Shown here in pieces: positions 5,380-22,108 of a DNA stretch of 64,000 nt. Both the position numbers and the translations under genes were made by a program. Under the pieces are notes generated by a model, which searched no databases, was not told where the DNA came from, and was given only the letters and a program-made list of their open reading frames with translations. Numbering within the stretch: position 1 is the stretch's first letter; every line of letters starts with the position of its first letter. Origin of the DNA: an uncultured Acidimicrobiia bacterium (GTDB lineage: Bacteria; Actinomycetota; Acidimicrobiia; Acidimicrobiales; Ilumatobacteraceae); NCBI GenBank assembly GCA_963749315.1, contig CAVVMS010000007.1, positions 18,153 through 82,152 of the forward strand, written 5' to 3'.

Positions 5380-5578
5380 TCGGCCATGCCGCGGTGCCCG
5401 GCGATCCTGTCGCGACATCACGAAAGGACCTGTCCGTGCTCGAAACCCTGGTTCTGCAGATGCGACGACCCGTGTTCTTGCTCGAGGACCGGCGACGAGT
5501 GGCCTGCGCTCGGTCCCTTGTGCTAGACCACCAACCCGGAAGGGCCTTGGCAAGCTTCCGAGCCCGACGAAAGGGAGC

Positions 5579-6280: not shown

Positions 6281-7464
6281 TCAGCTGGCGACGGACGCCG
6301 CGAGCGCGCGATCGACGGACTCGATCAGCTCCTCGGCGACACGATCCACGTCGCCGGCCGACATCTGGACGTAGAGCGGCAGGACGACGGTGTGGTCCTG
6401 GCACCACTCGGAGTGCGGGAGCACGCCCGGGAGGTGCCGGTACGGCTGCTCGCGGTGGGCGCACATGATCCCCCGCCGCGTGGCGATGCCTCGGTCGAGC
6501 ATGTGCTGCATGACCGCCCGCTGATCGCACGCCTCGGGAGATCGAGACGGAGAAGCTCTGCCAGTTGCTGCGCCGATCGGCTGGCTCGAGCGGTAGGCCG
6601 ATCGTCGTCGACATCGGCCGAGTCGCTCGCCGATAGCGCGTCGGCGATCCGCCGCCGGCCGGCGACGATCTCCGGGAGCCGCGCGAGCTGCACGCGACCG
6701 ACGGCCGCCTGGATGTCGGTCATCCGGTAGTTGAAGCCGAGGACGCCGTGCTCCTCGAAGATCGACCGTCGTCGGCGCCGTGGCGGACGCGGTCGTTGAC
6801 GCTCATCCCGTGCTGGCGCAGCAGCCGGAACGTCGCCGTCGAGCTCGGCGTCGTCGGTCGTCAGCATGCCGCCGTCGCCGGTGCTGATCACCTTGCGCGG
6901 GTGGAAGGAGAAGCACGCGACACGCCGTGCGGTCGGCCGATCCGCTCCCACGCGCCGTCCACGGCGATCTCGCTGCCGATGGCGCAGGCGGCGTCCTCGA
7001 CGACCGGGAGGCCGTGCGCGTCGGCGACGGCGGAGATGGCCGGCGATGTCGCACGGCATGCCGATCTGGTGGACGGCGAGGATCGCCTCGCGTCCGCGGC
7101 GTGATCGGCGCCTTCGATCAGCGGCGGGTCGATGTTGTGAGTCGTGCCGATCGACGTCGACGAACACCGGCGTGGCGCCGCAGTAGACGATGGCGTTGGC
7201 GGTGGCGATGTACGAGTGGCTGACGGTGATCACCTCGTCGCCGGGCCCGACGCCGACGCCGAGCAGGGCGAGGTGCAGCGCCGTCGTGCAGTTCGACACG
7301 GCGACGGCGTGCGCGGCGCCGGTGAACGCGGCGAACTCCTCCTCGAAGGCGGCGACCTCCGGGCCCTGCGTGACCCAGCCGGACAGGATCACACGCTGGC
7401 GCGGCGTCGGCCTCCTCGCTCGCCCATCACCGGGCGGCGAGCGGGATCGGCGATCGAGCGTCAC
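6281..7464 (-). CDS. DegT/DnrJ/EryC1-family PLP aminotransferase; multiple frame changes as assembled
   Basis: Pieces: ILSGWVTQGPEVAAFEEEFAAFTGAAHAVAVSNCTTALHLAL..., FSFHPRKVISTGDGGMLTT and GFNYRMTDIQAAVG (frame of ORF 6325..8451). The C-terminus is in ORF 6281..6511. The GTG at 7464 overlaps the upstream stop. Confidence 0.75.
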
Positions 7465-8451
7465 GACGATGCCGCCGTCGGCTCGCCGTCGCGCCACCAC
7501 TCGACCAGCGACGCGCAGCCCGCTGTCGAGGTCGATCTCGGGCTTCGAAGCCGAGCACCTCGCGGCGCCGTGGATGTCGGCGAGGCGACGGGGCACGGGG
7601 TTGACCGAGCGTTCGGGCCGGTACTCCGGCGCGAGGTCGGCACCCATCACCTCGCACGAGCGCGCGGGCGAGGTCGTCGAGGCTCGTCTCGGTGCCGCTG
7701 GCGATGTTGAAGACCTCGTCGGTGACGTCGGCGTGCGCCGCGAGCGATGTTGGCCCGGGCGATGTCGGCGACGTAGACGAAGTCCATCGTCTGCTTCCCG
7801 TCGCCGAAGATCAGCGGCGGCTCGCCGGCGGCGATGCGCTCCATCCAGCGGATCAGCACCTCGGTGTACTTGCCGTGGACGTCCATCCGCGGGCCGTAGA
7901 CGTTGAAGTAGCGCAGGGCGACGTAGGCGAGCCCGTACATGTCGTTGAACGACCGCAGCAGGCCCTCGTTGAACACCTTGATCGCGCCGTACAGCGTGCG
8001 GTTGTTGTACGGGTGGTGGCGCTCGTCGGTCGGGAACTCCTCGGCCAGCCCGTAGACCGATGCGGTCGACGAGGCGACGAGCTTGCGCACGCCGGCACGG
8101 TGCGCCGCCTCGACGACGTTGAACGTGCCGTTGCCGAGGACGTCGACAGCCAGCCGCGGATCCTCGGCGCAGTGCGTGATCCGGATGGCGGCCAGGTGGA
8201 AGACGCAGGTCGGCGCCGTCCATCACGTCGGCGACCAGCTGCACGGTCGCGGATGTCGCCCTCGACGAGCGTGACCCGCCCGCGCTGCGAGTGCGTCGGC
8301 GAGGTTCGCCATCCGGCCGCGGGTGAGGTTGTCGAAGACGACGATCTCGCCGCACCGACGCCGCGTCCTGGCCGTCGACGAGCAGGTCGACGATGTGCGA
8401 GCCGATCAGGCCGGCGCCGCCGGTGACAACGACCTTGTCGAGCTCACGCAT
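7461..8451 (-). CDS. NAD-dependent sugar-nucleotide epimerase/dehydratase (extended SDR); several frame changes
   Basis: N-terminus MRELDKVVVTGGAGLIGSH (8451). The middle is in ORF 7647..8090 (VASSTASVYG...YGAIK = YxxxK). The C-terminus is in ORF 7461..7643. Hand translation restores GEIVVFDNLTRGRMANL...FHLAAIRITH. Confidence 0.8.
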
Positions 8452-8469
8452 CGCTGACCTCCGGCGTTC

Positions 8470-9585
8470 TCATGCGCCCACGTCGTTCACGAGTGTCGGC
8501 CACCCGCTCGACGTGGTCGCTCGGGCATCTCCGGGTACATCGGCAGCGAGAGCACCTCGTCGGCAGCGCGCCTCGGCGTGCGGGAAGTCGCCCTGCGTGT
8601 GGCCGAGCTCGGCGAACGCCTGCTGCAGGTGGACCGGGATCGGGTAGTGGATGCCGGTGCCGACTCCGTGGTCGTCGAGGTAGCTCTGCAGCGCTTCGCG
8701 CGTCGGTCGTGCCGGACCGCGTACACGTGGTACACGTGGCGCCGATCGTCCGGTCGCGCGGGCAGCGTCAGACCGCTGCCGGCCGAGCAGGTCGTCGTAG
8801 CGGTGCGGCGCGGGCACGGCGGGCCTCGGTCCAGCGCTCGATGTGGGCCATCTTCACGCCGAGGACGGCGCCCTGCACGCCCTCCATCCGGTAGTTGAAG
8901 CCCTTGAGGTCGTGGTGGTACCTGCGCTCGGCGCCCCAGTCGCGCAGCATCGCGCACGGTGTGGCGCCAGGGCGTCGTCGTCGGTGACGACCGCCCCGCC
9001 CTCGCCGTAGGCGCCGAGGTTCTTGCCCGGGATAGAAGCTGAAGCAGCCGATCGTCGCCGATGCTGCCGACACGCCGGCCCTGGTACTCGGCGCCGTGCG
9101 CCTGCGCGGCGTCCTCGATCACGGTGAGCCCGTGGCGCTCGGCGATCTCCATGATCGGGTCCATGTCGGCCGGCAGGCCGTAGAGGTGGACCGGCAGGAT
9201 CGCCTTGTGTCCGTGGCGTGATCGCGGCTTCGATGCGGGCCGGGTCGATCGTTCAGCGTGACCGGGTCGATGTCGACGAACACCGGGTCGCGCGCCGCAG
9301 TAGTCGATCGCCGACACGGTGGCGATGAACGTCAGCGGCGTGGTGATGACCTCGTCGCCGCGGTCCGACGCCGGCGGCGAGCATCGCCAGGTGAAGCGCG
9401 CTGGTGCCGGAGTTGACACCGATCGCGTGGCGTGCTCCGCAGTGCGTCGCGAACAGCTGCCTCGAACGCCGCGACGGCTGGGCCGAGCACGAACTGTGCG
9501 CTCGGCGAAGACGTCGAGCACCGCCGCGTCGATCTCGGCCTTGATCGACTGGTACTGCGCGCTTCAGGTCGACGAACGGGATCAT
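8470..9585 (-). CDS. Second DegT/DnrJ-family PLP aminotransferase; many frame changes
   Basis: Starts [22 protein letters not shown] (ATG 9585, hand translation). Pieces lie in ORFs 9253..9702, 8487..9521 ([33 protein letters not shown]), 8768..9073 (CFSFYPG..., [14 protein letters not shown]) and 8470..8817 (the C-terminus). Confidence 0.75.
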
Positions 9586-9694
9586 CACCGGCGCGTCCTC
9601 GCGCCCGTGCATCGCGCCCTCTGGGCCATCTGCTGCCACGTCATCCTCCGCCGCTTCCCGCTCGATCTGTGACCGTGAGAGGCTAGCGGCGAAG

Positions 9695-11010
9695 TCAGGC
9701 AACTTGCGCGACCGCGTCGACGTGTTCTCTCTGGTCCGCGATCCGCTGGTAGCGCACGAGCATCAACCAGCCGGCGACGATGCCAGCCGTCTCGGAGATG
9801 TAGGTACCGAGAACCGCGCCCCGCCAACCGAGCGGCGGGACGAGGGCGAGGTAGGCCACGATGGCGACGGCTGACGTCGCGAAGCCCATGAACATGCGTT
9901 CACGGTTGCGGCCGAGGCCGAGCAGACCCATCGGTGGCAGCTCGGCGAGCCCGTGGAGGAGCGGGAGCAGGCACAGCCATGCCGAGATCACGGCAACCTC
10001 GTCGAACTCGCTGCCGGCCACCCATTGGATGAGATCGCGGCCGACGAAGATGGCGACTGCCGGCGACGACGCCATAAACCCCGCCGGCACCGAGAGGCGC
10101 GCCGTACGCGTGAGCTGGGCGCCGGGCCGCTCGTCGCGGACCATGAACCACCGCGTCGCTGCCGCCATGACGGCCGAGAACGGGATCAGCGTCATCAAGA
10201 CAACCCGGTAGGCAGCGGCGTACTGTCCGACCTCGGCGCCGGTCGCGTGGTCGCCAGGACGAACTTCTCGCCCTCGTTCTGGACGGCAGTTCGTCGACAT
10301 CGACGTCGCATAGAGCGACGAGTAGCGCATGACGTCTCTGCCTGTTGGCTGTCGAACGTGCTCCGCCGCCGACGCGGGCGCTGCGGCGAACGACGCGAGC
10401 GGAGCGCACCAACAGCACGCCGACCGCCAGCATGTTGACCAGAACGACGGTGACGATGCTGATCGTGTCACCGACTGCGAGGGCGACGATGCCGGATGCT
10501 CTGAGCACGGGTTGGAGCATGCGGAGCTTCGTCGAGGGCACGACGCCGTCGACGGCGAACACGACCGCGAGGTTGAGGGTTGGCAGGCTCGCCAGCACGA
10601 ACTCGACACCCAGGACCAGGATCGCCGGGACGCAGGATCGACGAGCCGAGCAGGCGCGACGGCCACCGCCGTTCCACCGATGGCGACCGGCATCGCACTG
10701 ATGAGCATCTGGCGTCGGCCGAGCCGAGCGCACTTCCTTGCTGTCGTACCCGAGTTGGAGGATGAGCTGCACCATCGCCGCGGCTGGTGCGGCGAACACC
10801 CACAGCCCGGCGAGCCCGAAGATGAGATAGAGCACGGTGTACTGGCCGTAGGCCTCGACACCGAGGCCACGGGTGGTCAGCGGGAAGATCACCGCCAAGG
10901 CGACCACTGACACGATCTCCACCGACATCGTGGTCGCCACGTCGCGCCCACGCCTGCGCGATGCGCTCCGGAGTATCGGTGAATGCGCCGATCTCAGCGC
11001 GCCCGCGCAC
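9695..11010 (-). CDS. wzx: Wzx-like polysaccharide flippase (MOP superfamily); frame changes, start approximate
   Basis: Multi-TM pieces: ORF 10468..11010 (N-terminus), the middle of ORF 9900..11450 (MSVEIVSVVALAVIFPL...), and the C-terminal half of ORF 9695..10870 (...LLPLLHGLAELPPMGLLGLGRNRERMFMGF...). Confidence 0.65.
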
Positions 11011-12401
11011 CGGTGCTCCGTGACCGCCGCCGGTGGCGCCCCCGTGGTGGGCAGCTCACCGAAGAGGTTGCGGAGCACCGCGACGTTCGGTCCGATGTCG
11101 TGGCGCTCGCGCACCAAGCGCTGCGCGGCGCCGGCGACCTGGTTCTGAGGTCGTCGATCCTCGAGGAGCCGCCGGATCGCCGTCGCCATCTCGTCGCTGT
11201 TGCTCGCTGGGACGACCAGTGCGGTCTCGCCGTCGATCGCCAGCTCGGGGATGCCGCCGACGAACGTGGTCACGACAGGCACGCCGACCGCCATCGCCTC
11301 CATGATCGAGACCGGGATCCCCTCGGCGAACGACGGAAGGCAGAACACGTCGGCATCGGCGAGCTCGTCGGAGACCCGACTCGGCTCCAGCTCGCCGACG
11401 AACGTGACGCGGTCGTCGAGACCGAGGCGAGCAGCAGTCTGCTCGATCAATGCCCGCGCTCGGGCCGTCGCCGATGATCCGCAACTCGACGTCGAGCCCG
11501 CGATCGAGCAGCGTCCGAGCGGCGGCGAGCAGCACCAGGTGGCCCTTCTCCGGCGAGAGTCGGGCCACGGTCACGATGCGTGCTCGATGCCGAGGCCGTG
11601 GTGGCGGTCGAAACGGGAAGGCATCGACGTCGATGCCGCATCGAACGACGTGGAAGCGGTCCCATGCTCTCTGGATCGGTCACGCGACAGAGCTGGGCTC
11701 GGGTGAAGTCGCTGACGCACGACCACGAAGCTCGCCGAGCGGACTTTGAGGTCGAGCCGTGTCACCCGCTCGTCGGCGAAGTCCTGGAAGCCGTGGATCG
11801 TGAAGCTCCAGGTGCAGCGCTCACCGGAGGAGAAGCTGCCGACTGCGGCTGCGAACCAGGCGACGGTGGCCGGTGTCTGGCCGAAGTGGGCGTGGAAGTG
11901 TCGGACTCCACGGTCGGCGACGGCCCGCCACGACCAGCAGGCATAGGCGAGGTGCACCAACCGTCGCGCGGCGAGCGGCAGGTCGAGCCGTGCGGACGTG
12001 ATCGCGAGCCACGTCAGCGCCGCCATCTCCGCCGGGTGGCGCAGCCAGGTTCGCAGCAGCGAACTGGCGAGGCGGACCGCGCCCTGTGCCTTGAGATAGG
12101 TGGTGCGGCGCGCAGCGTGTCGTGCGTCGTCCGACTCGACATCGGCCGGATCCGGAAGGTTGACAGCGATCGGTGTCACCCGACCGCCCACCCGCTCGAG
12201 CTCTTGGATCTCGAGGGCGATGAACGTGAGCGCCGTGCGCGGGTGGTGCGTCATCACGTAGGCGACGTGGGGCGGGCGCGGGTGGTCGGACAGGGAGGTC
12301 GTCATGTCACGAAGCGGTGTGCCCACGCCTGCGGAGGCCGAATCCGCGCAGTTGGCGGTCGTGCGCGCGCCAATACCGACTTGATCCGTCCCGTCCGCCA
12401 T
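10994..12401 (-). CDS. GT4 (WcaL-like) glycosyltransferase; frame changes; alternative start 12305; 3' end approximate
   Basis: N-terminal domain in ORF 11571..12401 (VAYVMTHHPRTALTFIALEIQELERVGG). C-terminal domain in ORFs 11056..11574 and 9900..11450 (VARLSPEKGH..., FCLPSFAEGIPVSIMEAMAVGVPVV). Confidence 0.7.
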
Positions 12402-12466
12402 GTCTCGAGAGGCTACTGCCGGCGCATCGCTCTCGCTCAGTGTCCGGTGGTCAGCGCGGTGGGTGG

Positions 12467-13846
12467 TCAGCGCGGTGGTGGGTCGATGAGGCCGGGTCCG
12501 TTGTAGGCGATGGAGGGTTCGTTGATCAGGCGGGTGCCGTTGCCGAGCTCACCCCACACGCAGGTGCGCATGTCGCGGATGCATGCCTGTGTCCACGTCT
12601 TCTGGATCGTGTTGTCCCAGGCGCCGAACCAGTCGGCGTGGAACGTGGAGCCGTTGGGGTGGGTCATGCCCGGCATGCGGTCCGACGCCAGGTACCAGTT
12701 GTTGGTGTTGCCGTCGGACGGCGAAGGCGGCGATCACGGTGATCTCGGGGAGGTGGATCGGGTGGCTCGCCGGGCAGCCGCCCTGCCTGGTGACCCAGCC
12801 GTCACCGCCGGTGCCGTAGGCCATGTGGCTGCGGTGGTCGGCGGCGTCGACGGCCTGGCCGTTCCAGCACATCGGGAACCGCAACCCGACCGTCAAGGTC
12901 TGGCCGGCGCCGCAGTTGGGCAGCGTGGTCGATCCCGCCCCGCCGTTGCACGACCACAGGCCGCGCATCGGGGTGGCCGCCGGGTTGGCCATGTCGAACC
13001 CGGCGAGCATGCGCAACCCGTTGGGGTAGGTCTGGATGCCGCGGATCATGTCCTGGCTGCCGTTGCCCTTGTAGTACAGCTCGAAGTACTCCGGCACGAC
13101 GACCCGGCCGGCGGCGTTGTGCATGGCGGGGACCCAGTAGCCGGTGCGGTTCAGTGGCCCGCCCTGGCAGGTCGACGATCCCGACGAGCGCAGCGACTGA
13201 TAGGTGCTGTGGGCGTTGGCGCCGGTGTTGCCGAAGTACATGTGCAGGTGCGAGGCGCCTGGCTGGCCGGGATAGACGATCGGGTCGTCATAGGAGAGGT
13301 GGGAGAACCCGCAGAACGTGCGGAAGCTCCCCGACGGCTCCCACGCCATCGACGCCGGGATCCGCTCACCCGTCGCCAACCACGCAGCCGGATCGAACCC
13401 CGACGACACCGACGGATACGCACCCGGATCGACGTTGCCGACGCCCGGCGGCGGCGCCGGTGCGGGCGCGGGCTCTCCGTACTGGCACGTCGTCACGATC
13501 TCGCCACCCCAGCAGCCGTCGTTGCCCGACGCGCCGTGGATCTGGTCGGTCCCGGCGTGGGCGTAGACGAGGTCGTCGCCGGTGCCGGCACACACCGTGT
13601 CGTTGCCGGCGAGACCGATCACGACGTCGTTCCCGGAGCCGGCGGAGAACACGTCGTTGCCCTGTGTGCCGACGAGCCGGTCGTCACCATCGGTGCCCAC
13701 GATCGTTGCCGTCTGCCCGTTGCACGTCGGCGACGGCGCCGCCGTTGCCGGAGTGACCGAGACGGTCACCCCGGCGACGACGAGCGACGCGGCGATGAGG
13801 ACGAACGTGCGCGCGCCAACCCGAGTTGATCCGCCCCGTCCGCCAT
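12467..13846 (-). pseudogene. DUF1996-type secreted protein, copy 1 (7 RTX-like units plus DUF1996 domain). It has a chimeric out-of-frame start and a 1-nt insertion.
   Basis: ORFs 12549..13769 and 12467..12676. There is an extra A at about 12718 relative to copies 2 and 3. The ATG at 13846 is a copy of the GT4 ATG at 12401 and is out of frame with the DUF1996 frame. Confidence 0.6.
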
Positions 13847-13910
13847 GTCTCGAGAGGCTACTGCCGGCGCATCGCTCTCGCTCGTGTCCGGTGGTCAGCG
13901 CGGTGGGTGG

Positions 13911-15434
13911 TCAGCGCGGTGGTGGGTCGATGAGGCCGGGTCCGTTGTAGGTTTCGGTGGGTTCGTTGATCAGGCGGGTGCCGTTGCCGAGCTCACCCCA
14001 CACGCAGGTGCGCATGTCGCGGATGCATGCCTGTGTCCACGTCTCTTGGATCGTGTTGTCCCAGGCGCCGAACCAGTCGGCGTGGAACGTGGAGCCGTTG
14101 GGGTGGGTCATGCCCGGCATGCGGTCCGACGCCAGGTACCAGTTGTTGGTGTTGCCGTCGGCGGCGAAGGCGGCGATCACGGTGATCTCGGGGAGGTGGA
14201 TCGGGTGGCTCGCCGGGCAGCCGCCCTGCCTGGTGACCCAGCCGTCACCGCCGGTGCCGTAGGCCATGTGGCTGCGGTGGTCGGCGGCGTCGACGGCCTG
14301 GCCGTTCCAGCACATCGGGAACCGCAACCCGACCGTCAAGGTCTGGCCGGCGCCGCAGTTGGGCAGCGTGGTCGATCCCGCCCCGCCGTTGCACGACCAC
14401 AGGCCGCGCATCGGGGTGGCCGCCGGGTTGGCCATGTCGAACCCGGCGAGCATGCGCAACCCGTTGGGGTAGGTCTGGATGCCGCGGATCATGTCCTGGC
14501 TGCCGTTGCCCTTGTAGTACAGCTCGAAGTACTCCGGCACGACGACCCGGCCGGCGGCGTTGTGCATGGCGGGGACCCAGTAGCCGGTGCGGTTCAGTGG
14601 CCCGCCCTGGCAGGTCGACGATCCCGACGAGCGCAGCGACTGATAGGTGCTGTGGGCGTTGGCGCCGGTGTTGCCGAAGTACATGTGCAGGTGTGAGGCG
14701 CCTGGCTGGCCGGGATAGACGATCGGGTCGTCATAGGAGAGGTGGGAGAACCCGCAGAACGTGCGGAAGTTCCCCGACGGCTCCCACGCCATCGAGGCCG
14801 GGATCCGCTCACCCGTCGCCAACCACGCAGCCGGATCGAACCCCGACGGCACCGACGGAAACGCACCCGGAGGTGGGATGGTCGGTGTGGTCACGGGCGG
14901 GGTGGTGGGTGGTGTCGTCGGTGGTGTCGTCGGCGGTGTCGTCGGCGGTGTCGTCGGTGGTGTCGTCGGTGGTGTCGTCGGTGGTGTCGTCGGCGGCGGC
15001 GGTGCGGCCTCTCCGTACTGGCACGTCGTCACGATCTCGCCACCCCAGCAGCCGTCGTTGCCCGACTCGCCGTGGATCTGGTCGGTCCCGGCGTCGGCGT
15101 AGACGAGGTCGTCGCCGTTGCCCACCGCGACGAGGTCGTCGCCGGTGCCGGCGCACACCGTGTCGTTGCCGGCGAGACCGATCACGACGTCGTTCCCGGA
15201 GCCGGCCGAGAACACGTCGTTGCCCGGTGTGCCGACGAGACGGTCGTCACCATCGGTGCCCACGATCGTTGCCGTCTGCCCGTTGCACGTCGGCGACGGC
15301 GCGGCCGTTGCCGGCGCGATCGAGCCGGTCACCCCGGCGACGACGAGCGACGCGGCGATGAGGACGGACCAAGACGGCCGTGCCCTTCGGCGGCGCGGCT
15401 GATTCGGGGCGCGGCAATCAGGCGGTGTGAACAC
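13911..15434 (-). CDS. DUF1996-type secreted protein, copy 2 (signal peptide, 8 RTX-like Ca-binding units, (TTPP)n linker, DUF1996 domain)
   Basis: ORF 13911..15434, intact. Contains GTDGDDRLVGTPGNDVFSAGSGNDVVIGLAGND..., PPTTPPTT... and FCGFSHLSYDDPIVYPGQPGASHLHMYFGNTG. Confidence 0.8.
   Translation of the reverse strand: MFTPPDCRAPNQPRRRRARPSWSVLIAASLVVAGVTGSIAPATAAPSPTCNGQTATIVGTDGDDRLVGTPGNDVFSAGSGNDVVIGLAGNDTVCAGTGDDLVAVGNGDDLVYADAGTDQIHGESGNDGCWGGEIVTTCQYGEAAPPPPTTPPTTPPTTPPTTPPTTPPTTPPTTPPTTPPVTTPTIPPPGAFPSVPSGFDPAAWLATGERIPASMAWEPSGNFRTFCGFSHLSYDDPIVYPGQPGASHLHMYFGNTGANAHSTYQSLRSSGSSTCQGGPLNRTGYWVPAMHNAAGRVVVPEYFELYYKGNGSQDMIRGIQTYPNGLRMLAGFDMANPAATPMRGLWSCNGGAGSTTLPNCGAGQTLTVGLRFPMCWNGQAVDAADHRSHMAYGTGGDGWVTRQGGCPASHPIHLPEITVIAAFAADGNTNNWYLASDRMPGMTHPNGSTFHADWFGAWDNTIQETWTQACIRDMRTCVWGELGNGTRLINEPTETYNGPGLIDPPPR
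14908..14991. repeat. 12-nt tandem coding repeat, GG(T/C)GGTGTCGTC x7, encoding the (TTPP)n linker of copy 2
   Basis: Read directly from the sequence. There is a degenerate unit on each side. Confidence 0.9.
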
Positions 15435-15550
15435 GAGGGCTCGCTCTCTGTTGGGCGCCTGCGGCAGAGCGCTGCTCGTCCGCAGGCGAGGTACGTCCCG
15501 CTATCGGTGCCCGGTGGTGGTGGGTGGGCGGAGGTCAGCGCTGTGGGTGG

Positions 15551-16681
15551 TCAGCGCGGTGGTGGGTCGACGAGGCGGGGTCCCGTGTAGGTGGAGGGTT
15601 CGTTGATGAGGCGGGTGCCGTTGCCGAGCTCACCCCACACGCAGGTGCGCATGTCGCGGATGCATGCCTGTGTCCAGGTCTCTTGGATCGTGTTGTCCCA
15701 GGCGCCGAACCAGTCGGCGTGGAACGTGGAGCCGTTGGGGTGGGTCATGCCCGGCATGCGGTCCGACGCCAGGTACCAGTTGTTGGTGTTGCCGTCGGCG
15801 GCGAAGGCAGCGATCACGGTGATCTCGGGGAGGTGGATCGGGTGGCTCGCCGGGCAGCCGCCCTGCCTGGTGACCCAGCCGTCACCGCCGGTGCCGTAGG
15901 CCATGTGGCTGCGGTGGTCGGCGGCGTCGACGGCCTGGCCGTTCCAGCACATCGGGAACCGCAACCCGACCGTCAAGGTCTGGCCGGCGCCGCAGTTGGG
16001 CAGCGTGGTCGATCCCGCCCCGCCGTTGCACGACCACAGGCCGCGCATCGGGGTGGCCGCCGGGTTGGCCATGTCGAACCCGGCGAGCATGCGCAACCCG
16101 TTGGGGTAGGTCTGGATGCCGCGGATCATGTCCTGGCTGCCGTTGCCCTTGTAGTACAGCTCGAAGTACTCCGGCACGACGACCCGGCCGGCGGCGTTGT
16201 GCATGGCGGGGACCCAGTAGCCGGTGCGGTTCAGTGGCCCGCCCTGGCAGGTCGACGATCCCGACGAGCGCAGCGACTGATAGGTGCTGTGGGCGTTGGC
16301 GCCGGTGTTGCCGAAGTACATGTGCAGGTGCGAGGCGCCTGGCTGGCCGGGATAGACGATCGGGTCGTCATAGGAGAGGTGGGAGAACCCGCAGAACGTG
16401 CGGAAGCTCCCCGACGGCTCCCACGCCGTCGAGGCCGGGATCCGCTCACCCGTCGCCAACCACGCAGCCGGATCGAACCCCGACGACACCGACGGAAACG
16501 CACCCGGATCGACGTTGCCGACGCCCGGCGGCGCTGGTGCGGGTGCGGGTGCCGGCGCGCATCCCGATGACACGGGATCGCACACGCCGAAGGCGAGCAC
16601 TGCGACCAACCCGTAGGCGCCGAGTCGCGGTGACGACCAACGCCTGGGTCGCCGAGCCGTCCCAGTCTCTGGAGTTTCCAT
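15551..16681 (-). CDS. DUF1996-type secreted protein, copy 3 (Arg-rich signal peptide, (AP)n linker, no RTX module)
   Basis: ORF 15551..16681, intact. The N-terminus METPETGTARRPRRWSSPRLGAYGLVAVLAFGV is followed by the same DUF1996 domain as copies 1 and 2. Confidence 0.8.
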   Translation of the reverse strand: METPETGTARRPRRWSSPRLGAYGLVAVLAFGVCDPVSSGCAPAPAPAPAPPGVGNVDPGAFPSVSSGFDPAAWLATGERIPASTAWEPSGSFRTFCGFSHLSYDDPIVYPGQPGASHLHMYFGNTGANAHSTYQSLRSSGSSTCQGGPLNRTGYWVPAMHNAAGRVVVPEYFELYYKGNGSQDMIRGIQTYPNGLRMLAGFDMANPAATPMRGLWSCNGGAGSTTLPNCGAGQTLTVGLRFPMCWNGQAVDAADHRSHMAYGTGGDGWVTRQGGCPASHPIHLPEITVIAAFAADGNTNNWYLASDRMPGMTHPNGSTFHADWFGAWDNTIQETWTQACIRDMRTCVWGELGNGTRLINEPSTYTGPRLVDPPPR

Positions 16682-16852
16682 GTCATCCCTTCCCCTGTTG
16701 ACGGCCCGTTGTCATGGGACCGTAACACAAGCGGAAGGAAAGTGAAGCATCGGGTCGACGTGGGCGCTTCCCCAATTTTGCGGATGCCGCTGACGCGGAG
16801 AGCCCGGTACGATGCATCAGCCCATTCCGGGGCGGCGGCGGCGAGGAATGCG

Positions 16853-18433
16853 ATGGAGCTTGAATACGTAGCAAAGGCAGTACGCCGGTTCTGGCCGGTC
16901 GTGCTGCTGTCGTTTGTCCTCGGCATCATTGCCGGGCAGCTGCTCCAACCCAGCACTCCGCCGCGCTACGAGTCGGCGGCGCTGTTACTCGTCACTGCGG
17001 ACAGCGAACTCGGCAACACCGAAGGTGATCGCTACGTCGCCAGTCAATTGGTCGTGCTCGAGTCACCTCCGTTGGCGGCCCACGCTGAGGAGCTCGCCGG
17101 GGTGTCCCTGGCAGACGGCGGGGCAACCGTGGCGTTCAACCAGATCACGGGGACGGATGTCGTGCGGGTCATCGCCTCGTCCGACTCACCCGCCGACTCG
17201 CAATTGCTCGCCAACGCCTTCCTCGACGCCTATGTCGAACGTACCGGGGAGACTTCGGGCGCCGACAAGCGGCTCGACGCGACCGAGATCGAGGCCTCGC
17301 TGGGGGAGATCGAGGGTCAGCTCGGCGAGGTCGACGCGCGCATCGCCGAAGTGATGGCACCATTCCTCGAGTCCGCTGACGCGGCATCCGACGCCGCGAT
17401 CCCCGAGGTCGAGCAGGTCGCGCCGGCACTTGCCACCGAGCGAGAAGTCCTGATGGAGACCTACCGCGGCCTGCTCAGCCAGCGCACCAACCTCGAGTTC
17501 CAGCCGGTGGCGCCCAACAGCCAGATCGTCCAGCGCGCCGCACTCCCGACGAATCCGCTCGTCAAGTCGTCGCTGACGATGACCGTGGCGCTGCCGATCC
17601 TCGGCCTGCTCTTCGGGATCGGCGCGGCGACCGTGCTGGCGAGGTCATCGCGACGTGTGCTCGATGGTGCCGAAGTGGTGGACCGGCTCGACCTGCCGTT
17701 CGCCACGGCCCTGCCGGCCGAGAAGATGCTGCGCGCCCGTTCGCTCTTCCAGCTCCACGCCCTCCCGGACGAGTACGAGGCCGGGGTCAACGAGCTCTGC
17801 GTGCAGCTCGAGGCGAGGGGGAAGTTGGACACGCCGCTCACCGTCTTGGTGACCGGGTCACAGCGAGTGTCCGGCTCGACGACGTTGGCCGGGGCCATGG
17901 CCGCACGATTCGGGGCACTCGGGTCGAGCGTCGTCCTCGTCGATCTCGACTTCGACCAACCGGACCTCTCGAAGTGCTTCGGCGTGCGCGGCGACGGCAT
18001 CTCGGCGCTCATCAACGCCGAGCCGCAGGTCGGCGCGGCCTTCACGTCGACCCCGCTGGCGAACGTGACCGTGGTCGGCCGCGAGCCCGGCTTGACGCAG
18101 GTGCGACCGCAACGTTCCGAGTTCTTGTTCCTGCTCGATGCAGCGGCTGAGCGCGCCGACGTCGTCATCCTCGACGCCGGTCCGGTGCTGGCCGGTCCTT
18201 CGGCGGCGGTGCTCGCTCAACACACCGACGCCACCGTGCTCGCGGTCCCGGTGTGGAGCCAGGAGCGGGCCTCGCTCAAGGTGGTCGCCCGTCAGCTCGC
18301 CGCCATCAGGTCGCACCTGCTCCCGGTCGCCATGCCTCGTCTGCGCCGCTCGAGTCGTCTTCCGCAGCCCCCGGCGCCGGCCACGATCCCGTCGGTTGAC
18401 GAGATCGAGCTGATGACGCCGACTCGCGGCTGA
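16853..18433 (+). CDS. Wzz-type chain-length determinant fused to a degenerate BY-kinase-like P-loop domain
   Basis: ORF 16709..18433 from MELEYVAKAV (ATG 16853). Order: TM segment, coiled region, second TM segment, then VTGSQRVSGSTT (the Walker A position has Ser where Lys is expected), VLVDLDFDQP and VVILDAGPVL. The C-terminal tail has no Tyr. Confidence 0.75.
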   Translation: MELEYVAKAVRRFWPVVLLSFVLGIIAGQLLQPSTPPRYESAALLLVTADSELGNTEGDRYVASQLVVLESPPLAAHAEELAGVSLADGGATVAFNQITGTDVVRVIASSDSPADSQLLANAFLDAYVERTGETSGADKRLDATEIEASLGEIEGQLGEVDARIAEVMAPFLESADAASDAAIPEVEQVAPALATEREVLMETYRGLLSQRTNLEFQPVAPNSQIVQRAALPTNPLVKSSLTMTVALPILGLLFGIGAATVLARSSRRVLDGAEVVDRLDLPFATALPAEKMLRARSLFQLHALPDEYEAGVNELCVQLEARGKLDTPLTVLVTGSQRVSGSTTLAGAMAARFGALGSSVVLVDLDFDQPDLSKCFGVRGDGISALINAEPQVGAAFTSTPLANVTVVGREPGLTQVRPQRSEFLFLLDAAAERADVVILDAGPVLAGPSAAVLAQHTDATVLAVPVWSQERASLKVVARQLAAIRSHLLPVAMPRLRRSSRLPQPPAPATIPSVDEIELMTPTRG

Positions 18434-18570: not shown

Positions 18571-19068
18571 TCACAACTCGTTCAGGTGCGGCGGTGCGGC
18601 GAGTTCGTCGGGCGAGAGGCGGTAGCGGAAGTCGCAGAAGGCAGCGCCTTGCATGATCGTCTGGGTCCGCTCGAGTTCCACGCCGGGAATTCCCTCAGCG
18701 ATCGGGAAGTCGGCGCAGCACACCAACAAGAAACCCAGCTCGGGCTCACCGAGCTGATGGAACAACTCGGCATAACGACAGCCAGTCACGTCGACGGCAC
18801 GTACCGTCGGTGACGCCTCACGTTCTTCGGCGTCGATGGCGTCGGCGGGGTAGGAGACCTCCACGAATGTCTGCATGGCGCCGAGCGACCCTCGCTTGCC
18901 TACCCAGCCCGCTGCCATCTGGCGATAGACATCGCCGAGCGCTCGGCGCACGAGGTGGTGGGCCTGTGCCGTCCCCAGCTCAGCTTCGAGCTCCTTGATC
19001 AACGGCACGAGCAGTTCGGCTTGGATCTTGACCCGATCGATCAGCGGCACATCCGGACGGTGCATCAA
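18571..19068 (-). CDS. L-2-amino-thiazoline-4-carboxylic acid hydrolase family protein
   Basis: ORF 18571..19068. Contains VTGCRYAELFHQLGEPELGFLLVCCADFPIAEG...RTQTIMQGAAFCDFRYRL. Confidence 0.65.
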   Translation of the reverse strand: MMHRPDVPLIDRVKIQAELLVPLIKELEAELGTAQAHHLVRRALGDVYRQMAAGWVGKRGSLGAMQTFVEVSYPADAIDAEEREASPTVRAVDVTGCRYAELFHQLGEPELGFLLVCCADFPIAEGIPGVELERTQTIMQGAAFCDFRYRLSPDELAAPPHLNEL

Positions 19069-19520: not shown

Positions 19521-19554
19521 GACGTCGCCCGAGCAGCGTTCAGGCTGCTGCAGG
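19521..19554. repeat. 34-nt hairpin-containing repeat, copy B
   Basis: GACGTCGCCCG AGCAGC GTTCAG GCTGCT GCAGG. It spans the stop codon of the O-antigen-ligase-family gene. Confidence 0.85.
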
Positions 19555-20841
19555 CGCGGGCGTGGACCGGCGATGCCAATCGGTGCGCAGCATGAGACAC
19601 TGGGAGGCGCACAGGATGCCGAGCCAGATGCCGAACACGACCACCTCGGTGATCGAGAGCACCAGGATGAGGGCGACATAACCGATCACGAACACGGCCA
19701 GGGGCGTGTCCTCGCGGAGGTTGGCGAGCCCGAGGCGGACCGTCGATCCCATCAGCCACAGCAGCAGGCCGAGGCCGACGATCCCGAGCGCCAGCAACAT
19801 CTCGAGGTAGCCGTTGTGCGAGTGGAACACGGTGAAGCCCAGTCCGCGCATGATCGTGCGCCCGGGGTCGCTCGATGGATCGCTCCAGACACCGCCCGCG
19901 CCGTAGCCGTTCCACGGTCGTCGTTCGATGGCGTCCCAGACGCCGGCCCACACGTCCGTTCTCCCCGTCAGCGTGGAGCTCTTGCCGAAGAGCCCGAGGA
20001 CCCAGGAGATGACGGCGGACCAGAGCACGCCCAGCAGCACGGCGATGCCCAGCGCACCGATGACGAGTGATGCCCTCGCCGGCCGCGCGCTCGCCGCCAG
20101 TCGGCGGACGAACATGCAGATCAGCAGCGTCACCAGGCCGGCACCGACCGCCGTCGAGGACTGCGACATGACGATCAGGGCGATGGCGGTGCCGATGGCG
20201 ATCGACCGGCGCGGAGAGCGACGATCGAACGACCAGAGGGTCAGCACGGCGAAGACCATGAACGGACCCATCGCGTTCTTGTGGCCGAACCCGCCGCGCC
20301 ATCCGGGGACACCGTCCGGGTTCATCATCGCCGTGCCCGGATGGATCATCAGCTCGAGCAACGTGTTGCCGATGGCGACGTAGCACGCGGCCACGAGCGC
20401 GCTGCGCAGGTCGCGGCGCGGGAGCAGACCGGCGAACACCACGCATGCCACGACATACGGCATGACCAGCTGGGTGTCCGTCCACCAGCCGAAGACGTTC
20501 GACGTCCACAGGTACGAGAGCAGCCACCACGCCATGATGAGGAGCGCCGGTGCCGTCACGATGATCCGCTTGCCGCGCCCTGGCGGGCCGAAACCGATCG
20601 TTCCGATCAGGCAGGCGACGAGGAGGACGATCAGCATCTTCGGCTTGAGCCCGCTGCGGGAACCGAAGCCGATCACCACGGCGACGATCACGCCGAGCTG
20701 ACCTGACACGACCCACAACGGCCGTCGCATCAGACCGACCGGTTGAGACTCCGCCGCCGTCGGCTGGAGTTCGGCCGGCCCGACGTCCCGGGTCGGTTGT
20801 TGCATCACGCCGCGAGGCGACTGGTCTCGTCCCGACCCCAC
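19540..20841 (-). CDS. O-antigen ligase / Wzy-type polymerase family membrane protein (alternative start 20730)
   Basis: ORF 19540..20841, intact and multi-TM. Contains GFGHKNAMGPFMVFAVL...FHSHNGYLEMLLALGIVG. Confidence 0.7.
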   Translation of the reverse strand: MGSGRDQSPRGVMQQPTRDVGPAELQPTAAESQPVGLMRRPLWVVSGQLGVIVAVVIGFGSRSGLKPKMLIVLLVACLIGTIGFGPPGRGKRIIVTAPALLIMAWWLLSYLWTSNVFGWWTDTQLVMPYVVACVVFAGLLPRRDLRSALVAACYVAIGNTLLELMIHPGTAMMNPDGVPGWRGGFGHKNAMGPFMVFAVLTLWSFDRRSPRRSIAIGTAIALIVMSQSSTAVGAGLVTLLICMFVRRLAASARPARASLVIGALGIAVLLGVLWSAVISWVLGLFGKSSTLTGRTDVWAGVWDAIERRPWNGYGAGGVWSDPSSDPGRTIMRGLGFTVFHSHNGYLEMLLALGIVGLGLLLWLMGSTVRLGLANLREDTPLAVFVIGYVALILVLSITEVVVFGIWLGILCASQCLMLRTDWHRRSTPAPAAA

Positions 20842-21872
20842 GAGGCGTCGGGGCGCGAGGACAACAGTCGACTGATCGTCACGATGGCAGCGTAGACCGC
20901 CGCCTCGACGAAGTGACGGGGGGCGGACATCGATGTGAGCAGTTGCTTGAAGGTCGAGCTCGTCGTCGGGTGGGCCAGCGTGGGCATCGTCTCGAACAGC
21001 TCGCGGTTGCCGCGCTGGGCGCGGGCGAGCGTGCGCAGCAGCGAGCGGACGTCACGAGGCACGCTGATGGACACCGGGGCGCACGGGACGATGGTCACCT
21101 CGGACGGCTCGACGACCCGGGCGGCGAACAGATCGTCGGCGATCACGTTCGGAAACGCCCCGAATCGCGTCCGGGCCTTCTCGCTCAAGCCATAGACGCC
21201 GGCTCCGCACAGGTCGGTATGGACGCCGGGAAGTCGCATGCGCTGGCCGTAGTAGCGCTTCACCAGCCAACTGGCACCGGTGGTGTCGTAGCGGAAAGGG
21301 GGCCGCGCTGCGACGGCACCGTCGCGCAGCGCGGTGAGCACTGCGACCGCGGAGCGTCCGTCGAGCGTGACATCGGCATCGAGGTAGAGCCGAGGCAGCG
21401 CCCGAGCTTCCCGCTCAGCGGCACGGATGGCCGCCGCCTTGCCCACCGGCGGCAGGTCGAGGACGGTCACCGTCCCGTGCACCTCGGCGGCGACCGCCGC
21501 GGTGGCGTCCGTGCACCCGTTGCACGCGACGACGACCTCCAACGCCTTCGGGTCGATTCCCGCGAAGAGCGAGGTGAGCGTCCGTCCGACGACGTTCGCC
21601 TCGTTGTACGCCGGGATGACGATCGAGCCGACGGGGCCGCTCACCCGGTCGTCGATCGACCGCGCGGGCTGACCGGCGAGCGCACGCTCGTCGGCGACTC
21701 CCACCGGTCGGCCGGTGTCGCGTCCGCGACTGCCGGGCGTCAGCTCGCATCGAGCCGAAGCGGGGATCCGCCGAGCATGGAAGTGGCGTCGCAGCCAGGG
21801 CAGTTCCGCGTCGCTCGCGTCATCCCACCGTCGCCTGGTTCGCCGTCCGTCTCCTCGAGCGGGGACGAACAT
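20805..21872 (-). CDS. Family 2 glycosyltransferase (alternative start GTG 21644)
   Basis: ORF 20805..22028. Contains SIVIPAYNEANVVGRTL...VVVACNGCTDAT...YLDADV. Confidence 0.75.
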   Translation of the reverse strand: MFVPARGDGRRTRRRWDDASDAELPWLRRHFHARRIPASARCELTPGSRGRDTGRPVGVADERALAGQPARSIDDRVSGPVGSIVIPAYNEANVVGRTLTSLFAGIDPKALEVVVACNGCTDATAAVAAEVHGTVTVLDLPPVGKAAAIRAAEREARALPRLYLDADVTLDGRSAVAVLTALRDGAVAARPPFRYDTTGASWLVKRYYGQRMRLPGVHTDLCGAGVYGLSEKARTRFGAFPNVIADDLFAARVVEPSEVTIVPCAPVSISVPRDVRSLLRTLARAQRGNRELFETMPTLAHPTTSSTFKQLLTSMSAPRHFVEAAVYAAIVTISRLLSSRPDASWGRDETSRLAA

Positions 21873-22108
21873 CGCGTCGCGCGCGCTGCTCCATCCTCGT
21901 GCTCTCGCCACGTCACCCTCCGCCGAGTTCTGTGTGTCCGCCTGAACGCGACCGTCTGGCCGCATCAATGAGTCAAATGGCTTGACAGCGAGGAAACATC
22001 CCCAATCTGTGCCAATTTCCTGTCCCACGGGGTGGTCGGCGTGGTCGACCCGGGGCGCGCCGACCTGCGTGTCCCGCCAGGCGCGGCGGCGCTTGCACTA
22101 GAACCTCG

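What the first reader, a model, noticed from the sequence alone, without database searches (positions are those of the whole stretch)
12467..16681. Tandem array of three near-identical DUF1996-type secreted proteins with swapped N-terminal modules, inside a Wzx/Wzy glycan locus
Three consecutive minus-strand genes share about 960 nt of 3' coding sequence. The copies are almost identical at the nucleotide level: a handful of SNPs, one 1-nt indel and one 3-nt indel. Their 5' modules differ. Copy 1 has 7 RTX-like nonapeptides (xGxGxDxUx). Copy 2 has a signal peptide, 8 nonapeptides and a (TTPP)8 linker. Copy 3 has a different Arg-rich signal peptide and an (AP)n linker, with no RTX module. The shared domain carries the motif I associate with DUF1996 (FCGFSHLSYDDPIVYPGQPGASHLHMYFGN, with many conserved Cys and His). 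I know of no established biochemical function for that family. From memory, unverified: the family is common in fungi and is often fused to carbohydrate-binding modules there. The array sits between the GT4 gene and the Wzz/BY-kinase-like gene. This suggests extracellular, Ca-binding enzymes acting on the exported polymer. The near-identity alongside modular N-termini points to recent amplification or gene conversion.
Basis: partly seen in the sequence, partly recalled or inferred. Interest (0 to 1): 0.72.

Follow-up and report, generated by a model that had tools for sequence, protein, structure and literature searches.

The report
Tandem DUF1996 genes in polysaccharide locus
Three nearly identical copies of a secreted protein domain of unknown function (DUF1996) sit side by side in a sugar-polymer gene cluster of an uncultured actinobacterium; two look functional and one is a dead duplicate, gene conversion keeps all three alike, and the domain is probably an uncharacterised carbohydrate-acting enzyme.

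Summary
Three minus-strand genes share about 1 kb at 98-100% identity. All three hit Pfam DUF1996, and copies 1 and 2 also hit the RTX repeat family.

- Copy 1 (12467-13820) is a decayed duplicate. It begins at a tandem-duplication junction that removed its start codon and the front of its signal peptide. It carries a frameshift, and a related strain carries a different one.
- A second, independently assembled strain (L001) has the same three-copy layout. An assembly artefact is therefore unlikely.
- Six strain-specific substitutions are shared by all three copies, which shows gene conversion. Other Ilumatobacteraceae also keep 95-100% identical DUF1996 domains behind different N-terminal modules.

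The link to polysaccharide loci holds in Acidimicrobiia and, through neighbouring sugar-transferase and PEP-CTERM genes, in Sphingomonadales and other groups.

Function is inferred, not shown. The structure model is confident (pLDDT 94) but matches nothing in the PDB. His, Asp and Cys residues are invariant. Relatives fuse the domain to carbohydrate-binding modules and GDSL (SGNH-type) esterases, and many have lipoprotein-type or Sec signals. My best reading is an extracellular, probably metal-dependent enzyme acting on the exported polymer.

The family is known but uncharacterised, so this is a new member, of moderate interest.

The parts
15551..16681 (-). Copy 3: intact short-form DUF1996 gene (376 aa). 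It has an Arg-rich signal peptide with a degenerate lipobox-like 'AFGVC', an (AP)5 linker at 16529-16558, and the DUF1996 domain at about 15698-16366.
   Evidence: ORF. Pfam DUF1996 E 9e-37 covering profile positions 1-237 of 237. Intact ortholog in L001. dN/dS about 0.35 against L001. In the 60%-identical homolog P0009 the aligned signal peptide ends in a canonical lipobox 'LVSC'.
13911..15434 (-). Copy 2: intact long-form gene (507 aa). It has a Sec-type signal peptide (about 15303-15434), 8 RTX nonapeptides (15045-15260), a (TTPP)8 linker (14895-14990), and the DUF1996 domain (about 14061-14729).
   Evidence: Intact ortholog in L001. dN/dS about 0.34. The RTX segment was not confidently modelled, pLDDT about 30.
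12467..13820 (-). Copy 1: pseudogene remnant of a tandem duplication. It has 7 nonapeptides (13509-13697), a copy-3-type AP linker, and a DUF1996 domain with a +1 T frameshift at about 12718. No in-frame start codon lies upstream of GTG 13769, which sits inside the former signal peptide.
   Evidence: L001 lacks the T at 12718 but has its own +C at the position equivalent to 13012, and it also lacks a start codon.
13821..13883 (-). Duplicated copy of the 5' end of the GT4 gene plus its upstream spacer (equivalent to 12376-12438). It marks the duplication junction. Its ATG is out of frame with copy 1 and its frame stops after about 27 codons.
   Evidence: Repeat family D8, 97% identity, spacing 1445. 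Frame analysis in the window and in L001.
11100..12401 (-). GT4 glycosyltransferase gene downstream of the array, broken by at least 3 frameshifts.
   Evidence: The Pfam Glycos_transf_1 match is split over two frames. Three-frame translation. tblastn with the intact L005 GT4. It is also fragmented in L001.
9695..10920 (-). Wzx-like flippase gene, fragmented over several frames.
   Evidence: Three-frame translation. The stitched protein gives only a sub-threshold Polysacc_synt hit, E 0.0012.
16709..18433 (+). Divergently transcribed distant Wzc/BY-kinase-like co-polymerase gene. The likely start is near 16880.
   Evidence: PDB Wzc E 2e-7 and CapA1/B1 E 1e-6. TIGR01007 at 52 bits, below its cut-off. 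Weak GNVR and AAA_31 hits.
19540..20841 (-). Wzy-type polymerase gene.
   Evidence: Pfam Wzy_C E 2.8e-16, above the gathering score. Homologs are syntenic with DUF1996 in L002-L006, L013, L014 and L018.
20805..22028 (-). GT2 glycosyltransferase gene of the same locus.
   Evidence: Pfam Glycos_transf_2 E 7.8e-15. Syntenic in relatives.

Best explanation
Shown: this is a three-unit tandem array of DUF1996 genes inside a Wzy-dependent polysaccharide locus of an uncultured Ilumatobacteraceae-like actinobacterium. Two genes are intact. Copy 3 is a short form with a signal peptide, possibly lipoprotein-like, then an (AP)n spacer and DUF1996. Copy 2 is a long form with a Sec signal, an 8-repeat RTX module, a (TTPP)8 spacer and DUF1996. 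Copy 1 is a dead by-product of a tandem duplication. The duplicated segment ran from the middle of copy 2's signal peptide to codon 14 of the downstream GT4 gene. Copy 1 therefore lacks a start codon and has since collected independent frameshifts in two strains. Gene conversion keeps all three DUF1996 segments nearly identical, the pseudogene included. The same homogenisation of DUF1996 domains behind unlike N-terminal modules recurs in other Ilumatobacteraceae.

Inferred: the DUF1996 domain is an extracellular, disulfide-stabilised and probably metal-dependent catalytic module. Its invariant residues (His54, Asp59, His71, His73, His274, Asp276) suggest a metal site. I propose that it cuts or chemically modifies the polysaccharide exported by the locus. 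One isoform would be held near the membrane and export machinery. The other would be released or Ca2+-bound through the RTX module. This resembles how rhizobia use surface-bound and diffusible glycanases to set exopolysaccharide chain length.
For: Array and domains.

Duplication junction and missing start codon in both strains. Different frameshifts in copy 1 of the two strains and none in copies 2 and 3.

Same three-copy layout in an independent assembly that is 97-99% identical across the array.

Concerted evolution: six fixed strain differences are shared by all three paralogs, and the copies within each genome are identical over the central 650 nt or so apart from one SNP and the copy-1 frameshift. 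Copy 1's linker matches copy 3 and its RTX block matches copy 2. Within-locus DUF1996 identity is 100%, 97% and 95% in L005, L004 and L002, while the N-terminal modules of the L002 pair are only 40-45% identical.

Purifying selection on copies 2 and 3, dN/dS about 0.35.

Glycan context:
- Wzy, GT2, Wzc-like and GT4 are syntenic with DUF1996 across Ilumatobacteraceae, Microthrixaceae and Iamiaceae.
- Neighbour Pfam counts in 15 Acidimicrobiia loci are led by GT2 (7), GT4 (6), APS_kinase (4), Epimerase (4), WecG (3), Acyl_transf_3 (3) and Wzy_C (3).
- In 17 other loci they are led by Bac_transf (7) and PEP-CTERM (5).

Carbohydrate-active and extracellular character:
- Fusions to GDSL (SGNH-type) esterase domains in 9 of 53 long members, plus CBM60, CBM96, NPCBM, PA14, SLH and PG_binding_1.
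- Fungal members are reported with CBM1, CBM6 or WSC (PMC7679414).
- Lipobox-type or Sec signals in short-form homologs.
- Invariant His, Asp and Cys residues.
- Confident model, pLDDT 93.9.
Against: - No biochemical activity is known for any DUF1996 protein. The only genetic study (fungal, PMC4738358) reports vacuolar localisation and stress or metal-sensitivity phenotypes, not glycan phenotypes.
- There is no structural or sequence similarity to any glycoside hydrolase, lyase, esterase or oxidase. The enzyme claim therefore rests only on context and conservation.
- I could not inspect model coordinates, so whether the invariant His and Asp residues cluster is untested.
- The adjacent GT4 and Wzx-like genes look broken in both strains. 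If that is real, the locus may no longer make its polymer.
- The RTX module was not modelled as a beta-roll.
- Signal-peptide and lipobox calls are by eye. Copy 3's 'FGVC' is not a canonical lipobox.
Confidence: 0.6

Rival explanations
1. DUF1996 does not act on the locus's own polysaccharide. It could be a metal-binding or redox protein, an adhesin or lectin-like surface protein, or an enzyme aimed at another envelope polymer or at foreign glycans taken up as food. On this view it sits in surface-glycan loci only because these are hot spots for surface-protein genes.
For: The fungal VLP study links DUF1996 to metal and stress sensitivity. Fusions to SLH, PG_binding_1, PKD, Calx-beta and cadherin-like domains fit a surface or adhesin protein as well as an enzyme. 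CBM60 and CBM96 fusions and the fungal lignocellulose secretome data point to foreign plant or algal glycans. No catalytic fold was recognised.
Against: Neighbours are repeatedly enriched for priming sugar transferases, glycosyltransferases and Wzy across phyla. The invariant His and Asp pattern and the frequent pairing with GDSL (SGNH-type) esterases are more typical of catalytic modules.
Confidence: 0.25
2. All three copies are functional. On this view the frameshift in copy 1 is a consensus error of a long-read metagenome assembly, and copy 1 is translated from an unusual start or by readthrough of copy 2's TGA, which lies in the same frame.
For: Copy 2's stop codon and copy 1 are in the same frame, with a single TGA and no other stop between them. 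A relative (L005) has two DUF1996 domains in one 1437-aa ORF. The neighbouring region is full of single-base indels that could be assembly noise. Copy 1's domain remains near-identical to the others.
Against: Two independent assemblies each have a frameshift in copy 1, at different sites, and none in copies 2 or 3. Both lack an in-frame start and the charged N-region of the signal peptide. Indel density across the array is low, 11 indels in 4.3 kb. Gene conversion alone explains the preserved sequence.
Confidence: 0.1
3. The three copies are an assembly expansion or mis-join of one or two real genes.
For: Near-identical 1-kb repeats are error-prone in assemblies. A 1,091-bp contig carrying a 292-aa member of the same 90% cluster exists in another data set, as expected if short-read assemblies break at this repeat.
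Against: Each copy has unique flanks and a unique N-terminal module, and copy-specific SNPs and indels are present. The junction carries a duplicated GT4 5' fragment. A second strain that differs at 1-3% of sites was assembled independently and has the same order, junctions and module differences.
Confidence: 0.04
4. The near-identity reflects very recent independent duplications in each lineage rather than gene conversion.
For: Tandem duplication clearly occurred, as the junction at 13820 shows.
Against: Both strains share the same junction, the same three architectures and the same chimeric copy 1. The array therefore predates their split, yet six substitutions are fixed in all three copies of one strain against the other. 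In L002 the homogenised domains lie on opposite strands about 8 kb apart, behind diverged N-terminal modules.
Confidence: 0.04

Closest known systems
Pfam PF09362 (DUF1996), including the Beauveria bassiana VLP1-3 proteins and fungal CBM/WSC-linked secretome proteins
   Same: Full-length match to the family model. The published head motif (DPIxxP, here DPIVYP), the H-x-H-x3-G motif (SHLHMYFGN) and the tail motif (HxDxxxGW, here HADWFGAW) are all present (PMC4738358). Function is unknown in both.
   Different: These are bacterial and lie in a Wzy-type polysaccharide locus. They have Sec or lipoprotein-type signals, and one copy has an RTX module. RTX plus DUF1996 was seen only here and in the sister strain among 78 loci and the best 120 homologs listed. 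The fungal VLPs were reported as vacuolar.
Rhizobial EPS-processing glycanases ExoK/ExsH and PlyA/PlyB
   Same: They are extracellular enzymes linked to exopolysaccharide production that trim the cell's own polymer. PlyA stays on the surface and PlyB diffuses away (PMC1403797; PMC4916376). That mirrors the anchored-like and free isoform pair proposed here. From memory, unverified: ExsH and the Ply proteins carry RTX-like repeats.
   Different: No sequence or fold relationship. Those enzymes leave Gram-negative cells through a type I system (ExsH via PrsDE). Here the RTX block is N-terminal, behind a Sec signal, in an actinobacterium. Activity here is untested.
AlgE1-7 mannuronan C-5 epimerases of Azotobacter vinelandii
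   Same: A family of secreted, Ca2+-dependent polymer-modifying enzymes. They are built from a catalytic module plus RTX-type R-modules and exist as several modular paralogs (PMC3166602, PMC7385640).
   Different: The catalytic A-module is unrelated to DUF1996. AlgE R-modules lie C-terminal to the catalytic A-modules (my recollection, not checked here). No alginate genes are present in this window.
Concerted evolution of tandem bacterial paralogs by gene conversion (for example tuf or rRNA operons)
   Same: Paralogs within a genome are more alike than orthologs between strains, and conversion tracts vary in extent.
   Different: Here conversion is confined to one domain while the N-terminal modules stay distinct. 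It also includes a pseudogene as a partner.

Membership tests
DUF1996 (PF09362) | Match to the Pfam model above the gathering score over its full length | tested here: met
   118-128 bits against a cut-off of 27. Profile positions 1-237 of 237 in copies 2 and 3, and 1-206 in the frameshifted copy 1.
DUF1996 (PF09362) | Signature motifs DPIxxP, H-x-H-x3-G and HxDxxxGW, as formulated in PMC4738358 | tested here: met
   DPIVYP, SHLHMYFGN and HADWFGAW are present. The corresponding His and Asp residues are invariant in 71 homologs.
DUF1996 (PF09362) | A defined biochemical activity | not testable with these tools
   None is defined for the family.
RTX / HemolysinCabind repeat proteins | Tandem GGxGxDxUx nonapeptides matching PF00353 | tested here: met
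   Copies 1 and 2 score 59 and 53 bits against a cut-off of 23. They have 7 and 8 repeats. Copy 3 has none.
RTX / HemolysinCabind repeat proteins | Parallel beta-roll fold | tested here: inconclusive
   The AlphaFold model of copy 2 has pLDDT about 30 over the RTX block, where the alignment is shallow.
Type I-secreted RTX proteins | Repeats placed ahead of a C-terminal secretion signal, with no N-terminal signal peptide | tested here: not met
   The repeats follow an N-terminal signal peptide. The C-terminus is the DUF1996 domain, which is shared with the RTX-less copy 3.
Wzx/Wzy-dependent polysaccharide locus | Wzy-type polymerase | tested here: met
   Wzy_C at 60 bits against a cut-off of 31.7, at 19540-20841.
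Wzx/Wzy-dependent polysaccharide locus | Wzx flippase | tested here: inconclusive
   The gene is fragmented. The stitched sequence gives Polysacc_synt at 18.7 bits against a cut-off of 28.2.
Wzx/Wzy-dependent polysaccharide locus | Co-polymerase / BY-kinase (Wzc-like) | tested here: inconclusive
   Distant only: PDB Wzc E 2e-7, and TIGR01007 at 52 bits against a cut-off of 108.
Wzx/Wzy-dependent polysaccharide locus | Glycosyltransferases and sugar-modifying enzymes | tested here: met
   Two GT2 genes, one GT4 (broken), GFO_IDH_MocA, a PglD-like acetyltransferase and DegT aminotransferase fragments.
Known EPS glycanases, lyases and epimerases (GH16 ExoK, AlgE A-module, PL families) | Sequence or fold similarity to a characterised catalytic family | tested here: not met
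   No other Pfam hit even at E<=10. No PDB sequence hit. Best Foldseek PDB hit E 0.03 with TM 0.15.

The most novel reading that the evidence does not exclude
DUF1996 is a previously unrecognised fold and a new carbohydrate-active enzyme family of about 6,000 sequence clusters in bacteria and fungi. It would use a His/Asp metal centre to cleave or oxidise polysaccharides. In bacteria its native job would be to process Wzy-dependent exopolysaccharides at the cell surface. In Ilumatobacteraceae, gene conversion would keep one catalytic domain identical across differently targeted isoforms.
Probability: 0.3. Interest if true: 0.75.

Novelty: new member of a known kind. Interest (0 to 1): 0.5.

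Why it matters
DUF1996 is a large family: 6,055 clusters at 50% identity. It is found in bacteria and fungi. It has no known activity and no solved or recognisably similar structure.

The bacterial context found here gives a concrete, testable hypothesis: an extracellular enzyme acting on the cell's own exported polysaccharide. The context consists of:
- polysaccharide-synthesis loci;
- fusions to carbohydrate-binding modules and GDSL (SGNH-type) esterases;
- lipoprotein-type or secretion signals.

It also supplies good experimental targets, including cultured Sphingomonas strains that carry DUF1996 genes next to sugar-transferase genes.

The array is also a clean natural example of domain-restricted gene conversion that includes a pseudogene partner. 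It is a warning for annotation as well: the deposited 406-aa 'protein' of copy 1 is a frameshifted remnant.

Tried and rejected
Searches that found nothing:
- PDB sequence search with a 71-sequence profile.
- Foldseek of the pLDDT-94 model against the PDB and against BFVD. Best E was 0.03 with TM <= 0.15, so no fold assignment was possible.
- Pfam at E<=10 on five diverse DUF1996 domains. No second family appeared.
- NCBIfam for copy 3 and PHROGs.
- Rfam on 9-20 kb.
- The promoter and terminator scan.

Attempts that failed or were discarded:
- Look-up of the contig encoding P0001. It is not on record, so the source record of the window stayed unnamed.
- AlphaFold on full-length copy 2. The RTX block was unmodelled.
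- A dN/dS estimate for the Wzc-like gene. I discarded it because I started the frame at the wrong codon and the alignment was unreliable.

Ideas considered and rejected:
- Tat signal in copy 3: no S/T-R-R-x-F-L-K-like motif by eye.
- Canonical lipoprotein status for copy 3: 'FGVC' and 'SSGC' both miss the consensus, although homologs have canonical boxes.
- T1SS substrate status (see the membership test).

Left unresolved: whether the frameshifts in GT4 and Wzx are real decay or consensus noise in a hypervariable region. Both assemblies are fragmented there, and they differ from each other by about one indel per 50 nt and by 6-20% mismatches.

Full report
**1. What is in the sequence**

Three minus-strand ORFs occupy 12.5-16.7 kb:
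- copy 3: 15551-16681, 376 aa
- copy 2: 13911-15434, 507 aa
- copy 1: 12549-13769, 406 aa as an open frame

Repeat detection and a three-way DNA alignment show about 1 kb that is near-identical in all three, with 300-nt blocks at 100%. Pfam places DUF1996 (PF09362) in all three at E 7e-34 to 9e-37. The match covers the whole model in copies 2 and 3. HemolysinCabind is found in copies 1 and 2 only.

Copy 2 has 8 nonapeptides and (TTPP)8. Copy 1 has 7 nonapeptides. Copy 3 has an Arg-rich signal peptide, an (AP)5 linker and no RTX block. The window is about 70% G+C.

The closest genomes carrying relatives are uncultured Ilumatobacteraceae (Acidimicrobiia), many from long-read soil metagenomes. 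The window itself matches proteins recorded on a 104,682-bp contig.

**2. Copy 1 is a dead duplicate**

The 63 nt upstream of copy 1 (13821-13883) duplicate the start of the downstream GT4 gene and its leader (12376-12438, 97% identical). The duplication unit therefore ran from the hydrophobic core of copy 2's signal peptide, through the gene and the spacer, to codon 14 of GT4.

At the junction the copied GT4 ATG is out of frame with copy 1, and its frame ends after about 27 codons. No ATG, GTG or TTG lies in copy 1's frame before a GTG inside the former signal peptide. An extra T at about 12718 then shifts the frame.

**3. A second strain settles three questions**

A 321-aa homolog led to an ENA metagenome contig of 111 kb (L001). 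It is colinear with the window over 6.3-23.7 kb. Across the array the two are 97-99% identical with few indels.

- L001 has the same three genes, the same junction and the same module differences. An assembly expansion is therefore very unlikely, although read-level proof is still missing.
- L001's copy 1 also lacks a start codon. It lacks the T at 12718 but has its own +C at the position equivalent to 13012. Copies 2 and 3 are intact in both strains. Independent disabling mutations in the same copy are what a pseudogene predicts.
- Six substitutions separate the strains, and all three paralogs of each strain share them. Within each genome the central 650 nt or so differ only by one SNP plus the frameshift. 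Because the array predates the split, this is gene conversion. Tracts vary in extent: in L001 the 3' end of copy 3 has been converted to the copy 2 type, while in the window it is distinct. Copy 1's linker is of the copy 3 type although its RTX block is of the copy 2 type.

Copies 2 and 3 give dN/dS of about 0.35 between strains. That rests on few substitutions but is consistent with function.

**4. The same pattern occurs in relatives**

Among 77 loci from species-representative genomes, about 19 carry two DUF1996 genes within 10 kb. In Ilumatobacteraceae the paired domains are 100% (L005), 97% (L004) and 95% (L002) identical. In Sphingomonadales the pairs are about 66% identical.

- In L002 the two genes lie on opposite strands about 8 kb apart, and their N-terminal repeat modules are only 40-45% identical.
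- In L004 a long form sits next to a short form. By eye, the short form's signal peptide ends 'ASAGC', which looks lipoprotein-like.
- In L005 two DUF1996 domains and a partial GDSL segment form one 1437-aa ORF.

One homogenised domain behind several different front ends is thus a lineage habit, not a peculiarity of this window.

**5. Context**

On one side, transcribed divergently, lies a distant Wzc/BY-kinase-like gene. Beyond it are an ATC_hydrolase gene, a Wzy gene and a GT2 gene. On the other side lie GT4, a Wzx-like gene, DegT aminotransferase fragments, a GFO_IDH_MocA-plus-PglD-like ORF and another GT2.

GT4 and the Wzx-like gene need several frame changes to be read. Between the two strains this 6.5-12.4 kb stretch is only 80-94% identical, with about one indel per 50 nt. 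I cannot tell real decay from poor consensus in a hypervariable region.

Homologs of Wzy, GT2, the Wzc-like gene and GT4 accompany DUF1996 in Ilumatobacteraceae, Microthrixaceae and Iamiaceae. Pfam counts over 129 neighbour proteins from 15 Acidimicrobiia loci are led by GT2, GT4, APS_kinase, epimerases, WecG, Acyl_transf_3 and Wzy_C. Over 131 neighbours from 17 Sphingomonadales, Saccharibacteria and other loci, the counts are led by Bac_transf (7) and PEP-CTERM (5). By my rough estimate a genome has only a few Bac_transf genes, so 131 random genes would contain well under one.

**6. What the domain might do**

No activity is known. The held literature has one functional paper, on fungal vacuolar proteins with stress and metal phenotypes (PMC4738358). 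It also has secretome papers noting CBM1, CBM6 or WSC partners (PMC7679414).

A profile search finds 6,055 clusters at 50% identity. An alignment of 71 homologs has invariant Cys50, His54, Asp59, His71, His73, Arg105, Tyr108, Trp109, Tyr129, Tyr130, His274, Asp276, Trp277 and more.

AlphaFold gives a confident, mostly beta model (pLDDT 93.9, pTM 0.91). The following searches give nothing significant:
- Foldseek against the PDB and BFVD;
- a PDB sequence search with the profile;
- permissive Pfam;
- PHROGs.

Partners in long family members are GDSL-type (SGNH) esterases (9 of 53), Calx-beta, PKD, CBM60, CBM96, NPCBM, PG_binding_1 and SLH. Elsewhere they include PA14, DUF4214 and SdrD_B. About a third of the short-form homologs I inspected end their signal peptide in a canonical lipobox. 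In P0009 the box 'LVSC' aligns with copy 3's degenerate 'FGVC'.

Together these features point to an extracellular, disulfide-bonded, probably metal-dependent carbohydrate-active module. I infer that it trims or modifies the polymer made by the locus. Copy 3 would act near the membrane. Copy 2 would be spaced out on a Pro/Thr linker and bind Ca2+. This step is inference. The rival that it targets other glycans, or is not an enzyme at all, keeps substantial weight.

**7. Comparison with known systems**

Membership of DUF1996 is met on every sequence criterion. The RTX repeats are genuine, but the protein is not a type I secretion substrate, because the repeats follow an N-terminal signal peptide.

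In working logic the nearest analogues are two:
- the rhizobial ExoK/ExsH and PlyA/PlyB glycanases, where PlyA is surface-attached and PlyB diffusible (PMC1403797, PMC4916376);
- the modular, Ca2+-dependent AlgE epimerases (PMC3166602, PMC7385640).

There is no homology to either.

**8. Verdict**

The array is real, with two working genes and one remnant kept similar by gene conversion. It is a new member of a known but uncharacterised family.

Interest is moderate. The value lies in the testable function hypothesis for a large orphan family with no recognisable fold, and in the clear example of domain-restricted concerted evolution. It does not lie in a new kind of system.

Noticed in passing
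window 6500-12400: The GT4, Wzx-like and DegT genes need many frame changes to be read. This stretch is only 80-94% identical to the sister strain L001, with about one single-base indel per 50 nt. The flanks are 97-99% identical with few indels. It is either a decaying or hypervariable part of the locus, or a poor metagenome consensus.
   Followed up: partly
window 13769-13913 (and L001 9850-10000): Copy 2's stop codon and copy 1 are in the same reading frame, with one TGA and no other stop between them, in both strains. Readthrough would give a two-domain protein like the 1437-aa double-DUF1996 ORF of L005. The frameshifts in copy 1 argue against this being used.
   Followed up: partly
window 12446-12484, 13890-13928, 15533-15568: A 16-nt unit (GGTGGTCAGCGCGGTG on the + strand) is tandemly duplicated about 2.1-2.2 times across the stop codon of each of the three copies. 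The stop region therefore reads '...PPPR* PPTALTTG'.
   Followed up: no
L002 8603-10000 and 19600-20609; L004 8732-10100: The long-form DUF1996 proteins of other Ilumatobacteraceae carry 3-4 copies of an N-terminal repeat of roughly 100 aa. The recurring motifs are '...TVFPCG...P..SN.NF...', 'VC.Y.S...D..VDV.GW' and 'R..DTR'. It has no Pfam match at E<=0.001 and may be an undescribed surface repeat domain.
   Followed up: no
L005 7979-12292: The complete Ilumatobacter sp. chromosome encodes one 1437-aa ORF with two 100%-identical DUF1996 domains, a partial GDSL-lipase-like segment and internal DNA repeats. A GT47/exostosin-like gene follows it, and a 1598-aa formyltransferase / AMP-binding / luciferase-like / carrier-protein gene precedes it.
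   Followed up: partly
Acidimicrobiia loci L002-L063 (neighbours of DUF1996): APS_kinase (4 proteins) and PAPS_reduct/CysD-like plus GTP_EFTU (CysN-like) genes recur near DUF1996 in these loci. This suggests that some of these polysaccharides are sulfated.
   Followed up: no
window 4442-6277: A single 611-aa ORF joins a GFO_IDH_MocA oxidoreductase to a PglD-like hexapeptide acetyltransferase. It is either a natural fusion or two genes merged by an indel.
   Followed up: no
window 18571-19068: An ATC_hydrolase-family gene (L-2-amino-thiazoline-4-carboxylate hydrolase-like) sits between the Wzc-like and Wzy genes. It is kept at the same place in L001. Its role in a glycan locus is unclear.
   Followed up: no
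Sphingomonadales loci, e.g. L020, L029, L031, L034, L069: Sphingomonas genomes, several of them cultured strains, carry two diverged DUF1996 genes (about 66% identical) with a GT4 gene about 3 kb upstream. Pooled neighbour counts over 17 non-Acidimicrobiia loci, mostly Sphingomonadales, are led by Bac_transf (7) and PEP-CTERM (5). These strains are practical organisms for testing function.
   Followed up: partly
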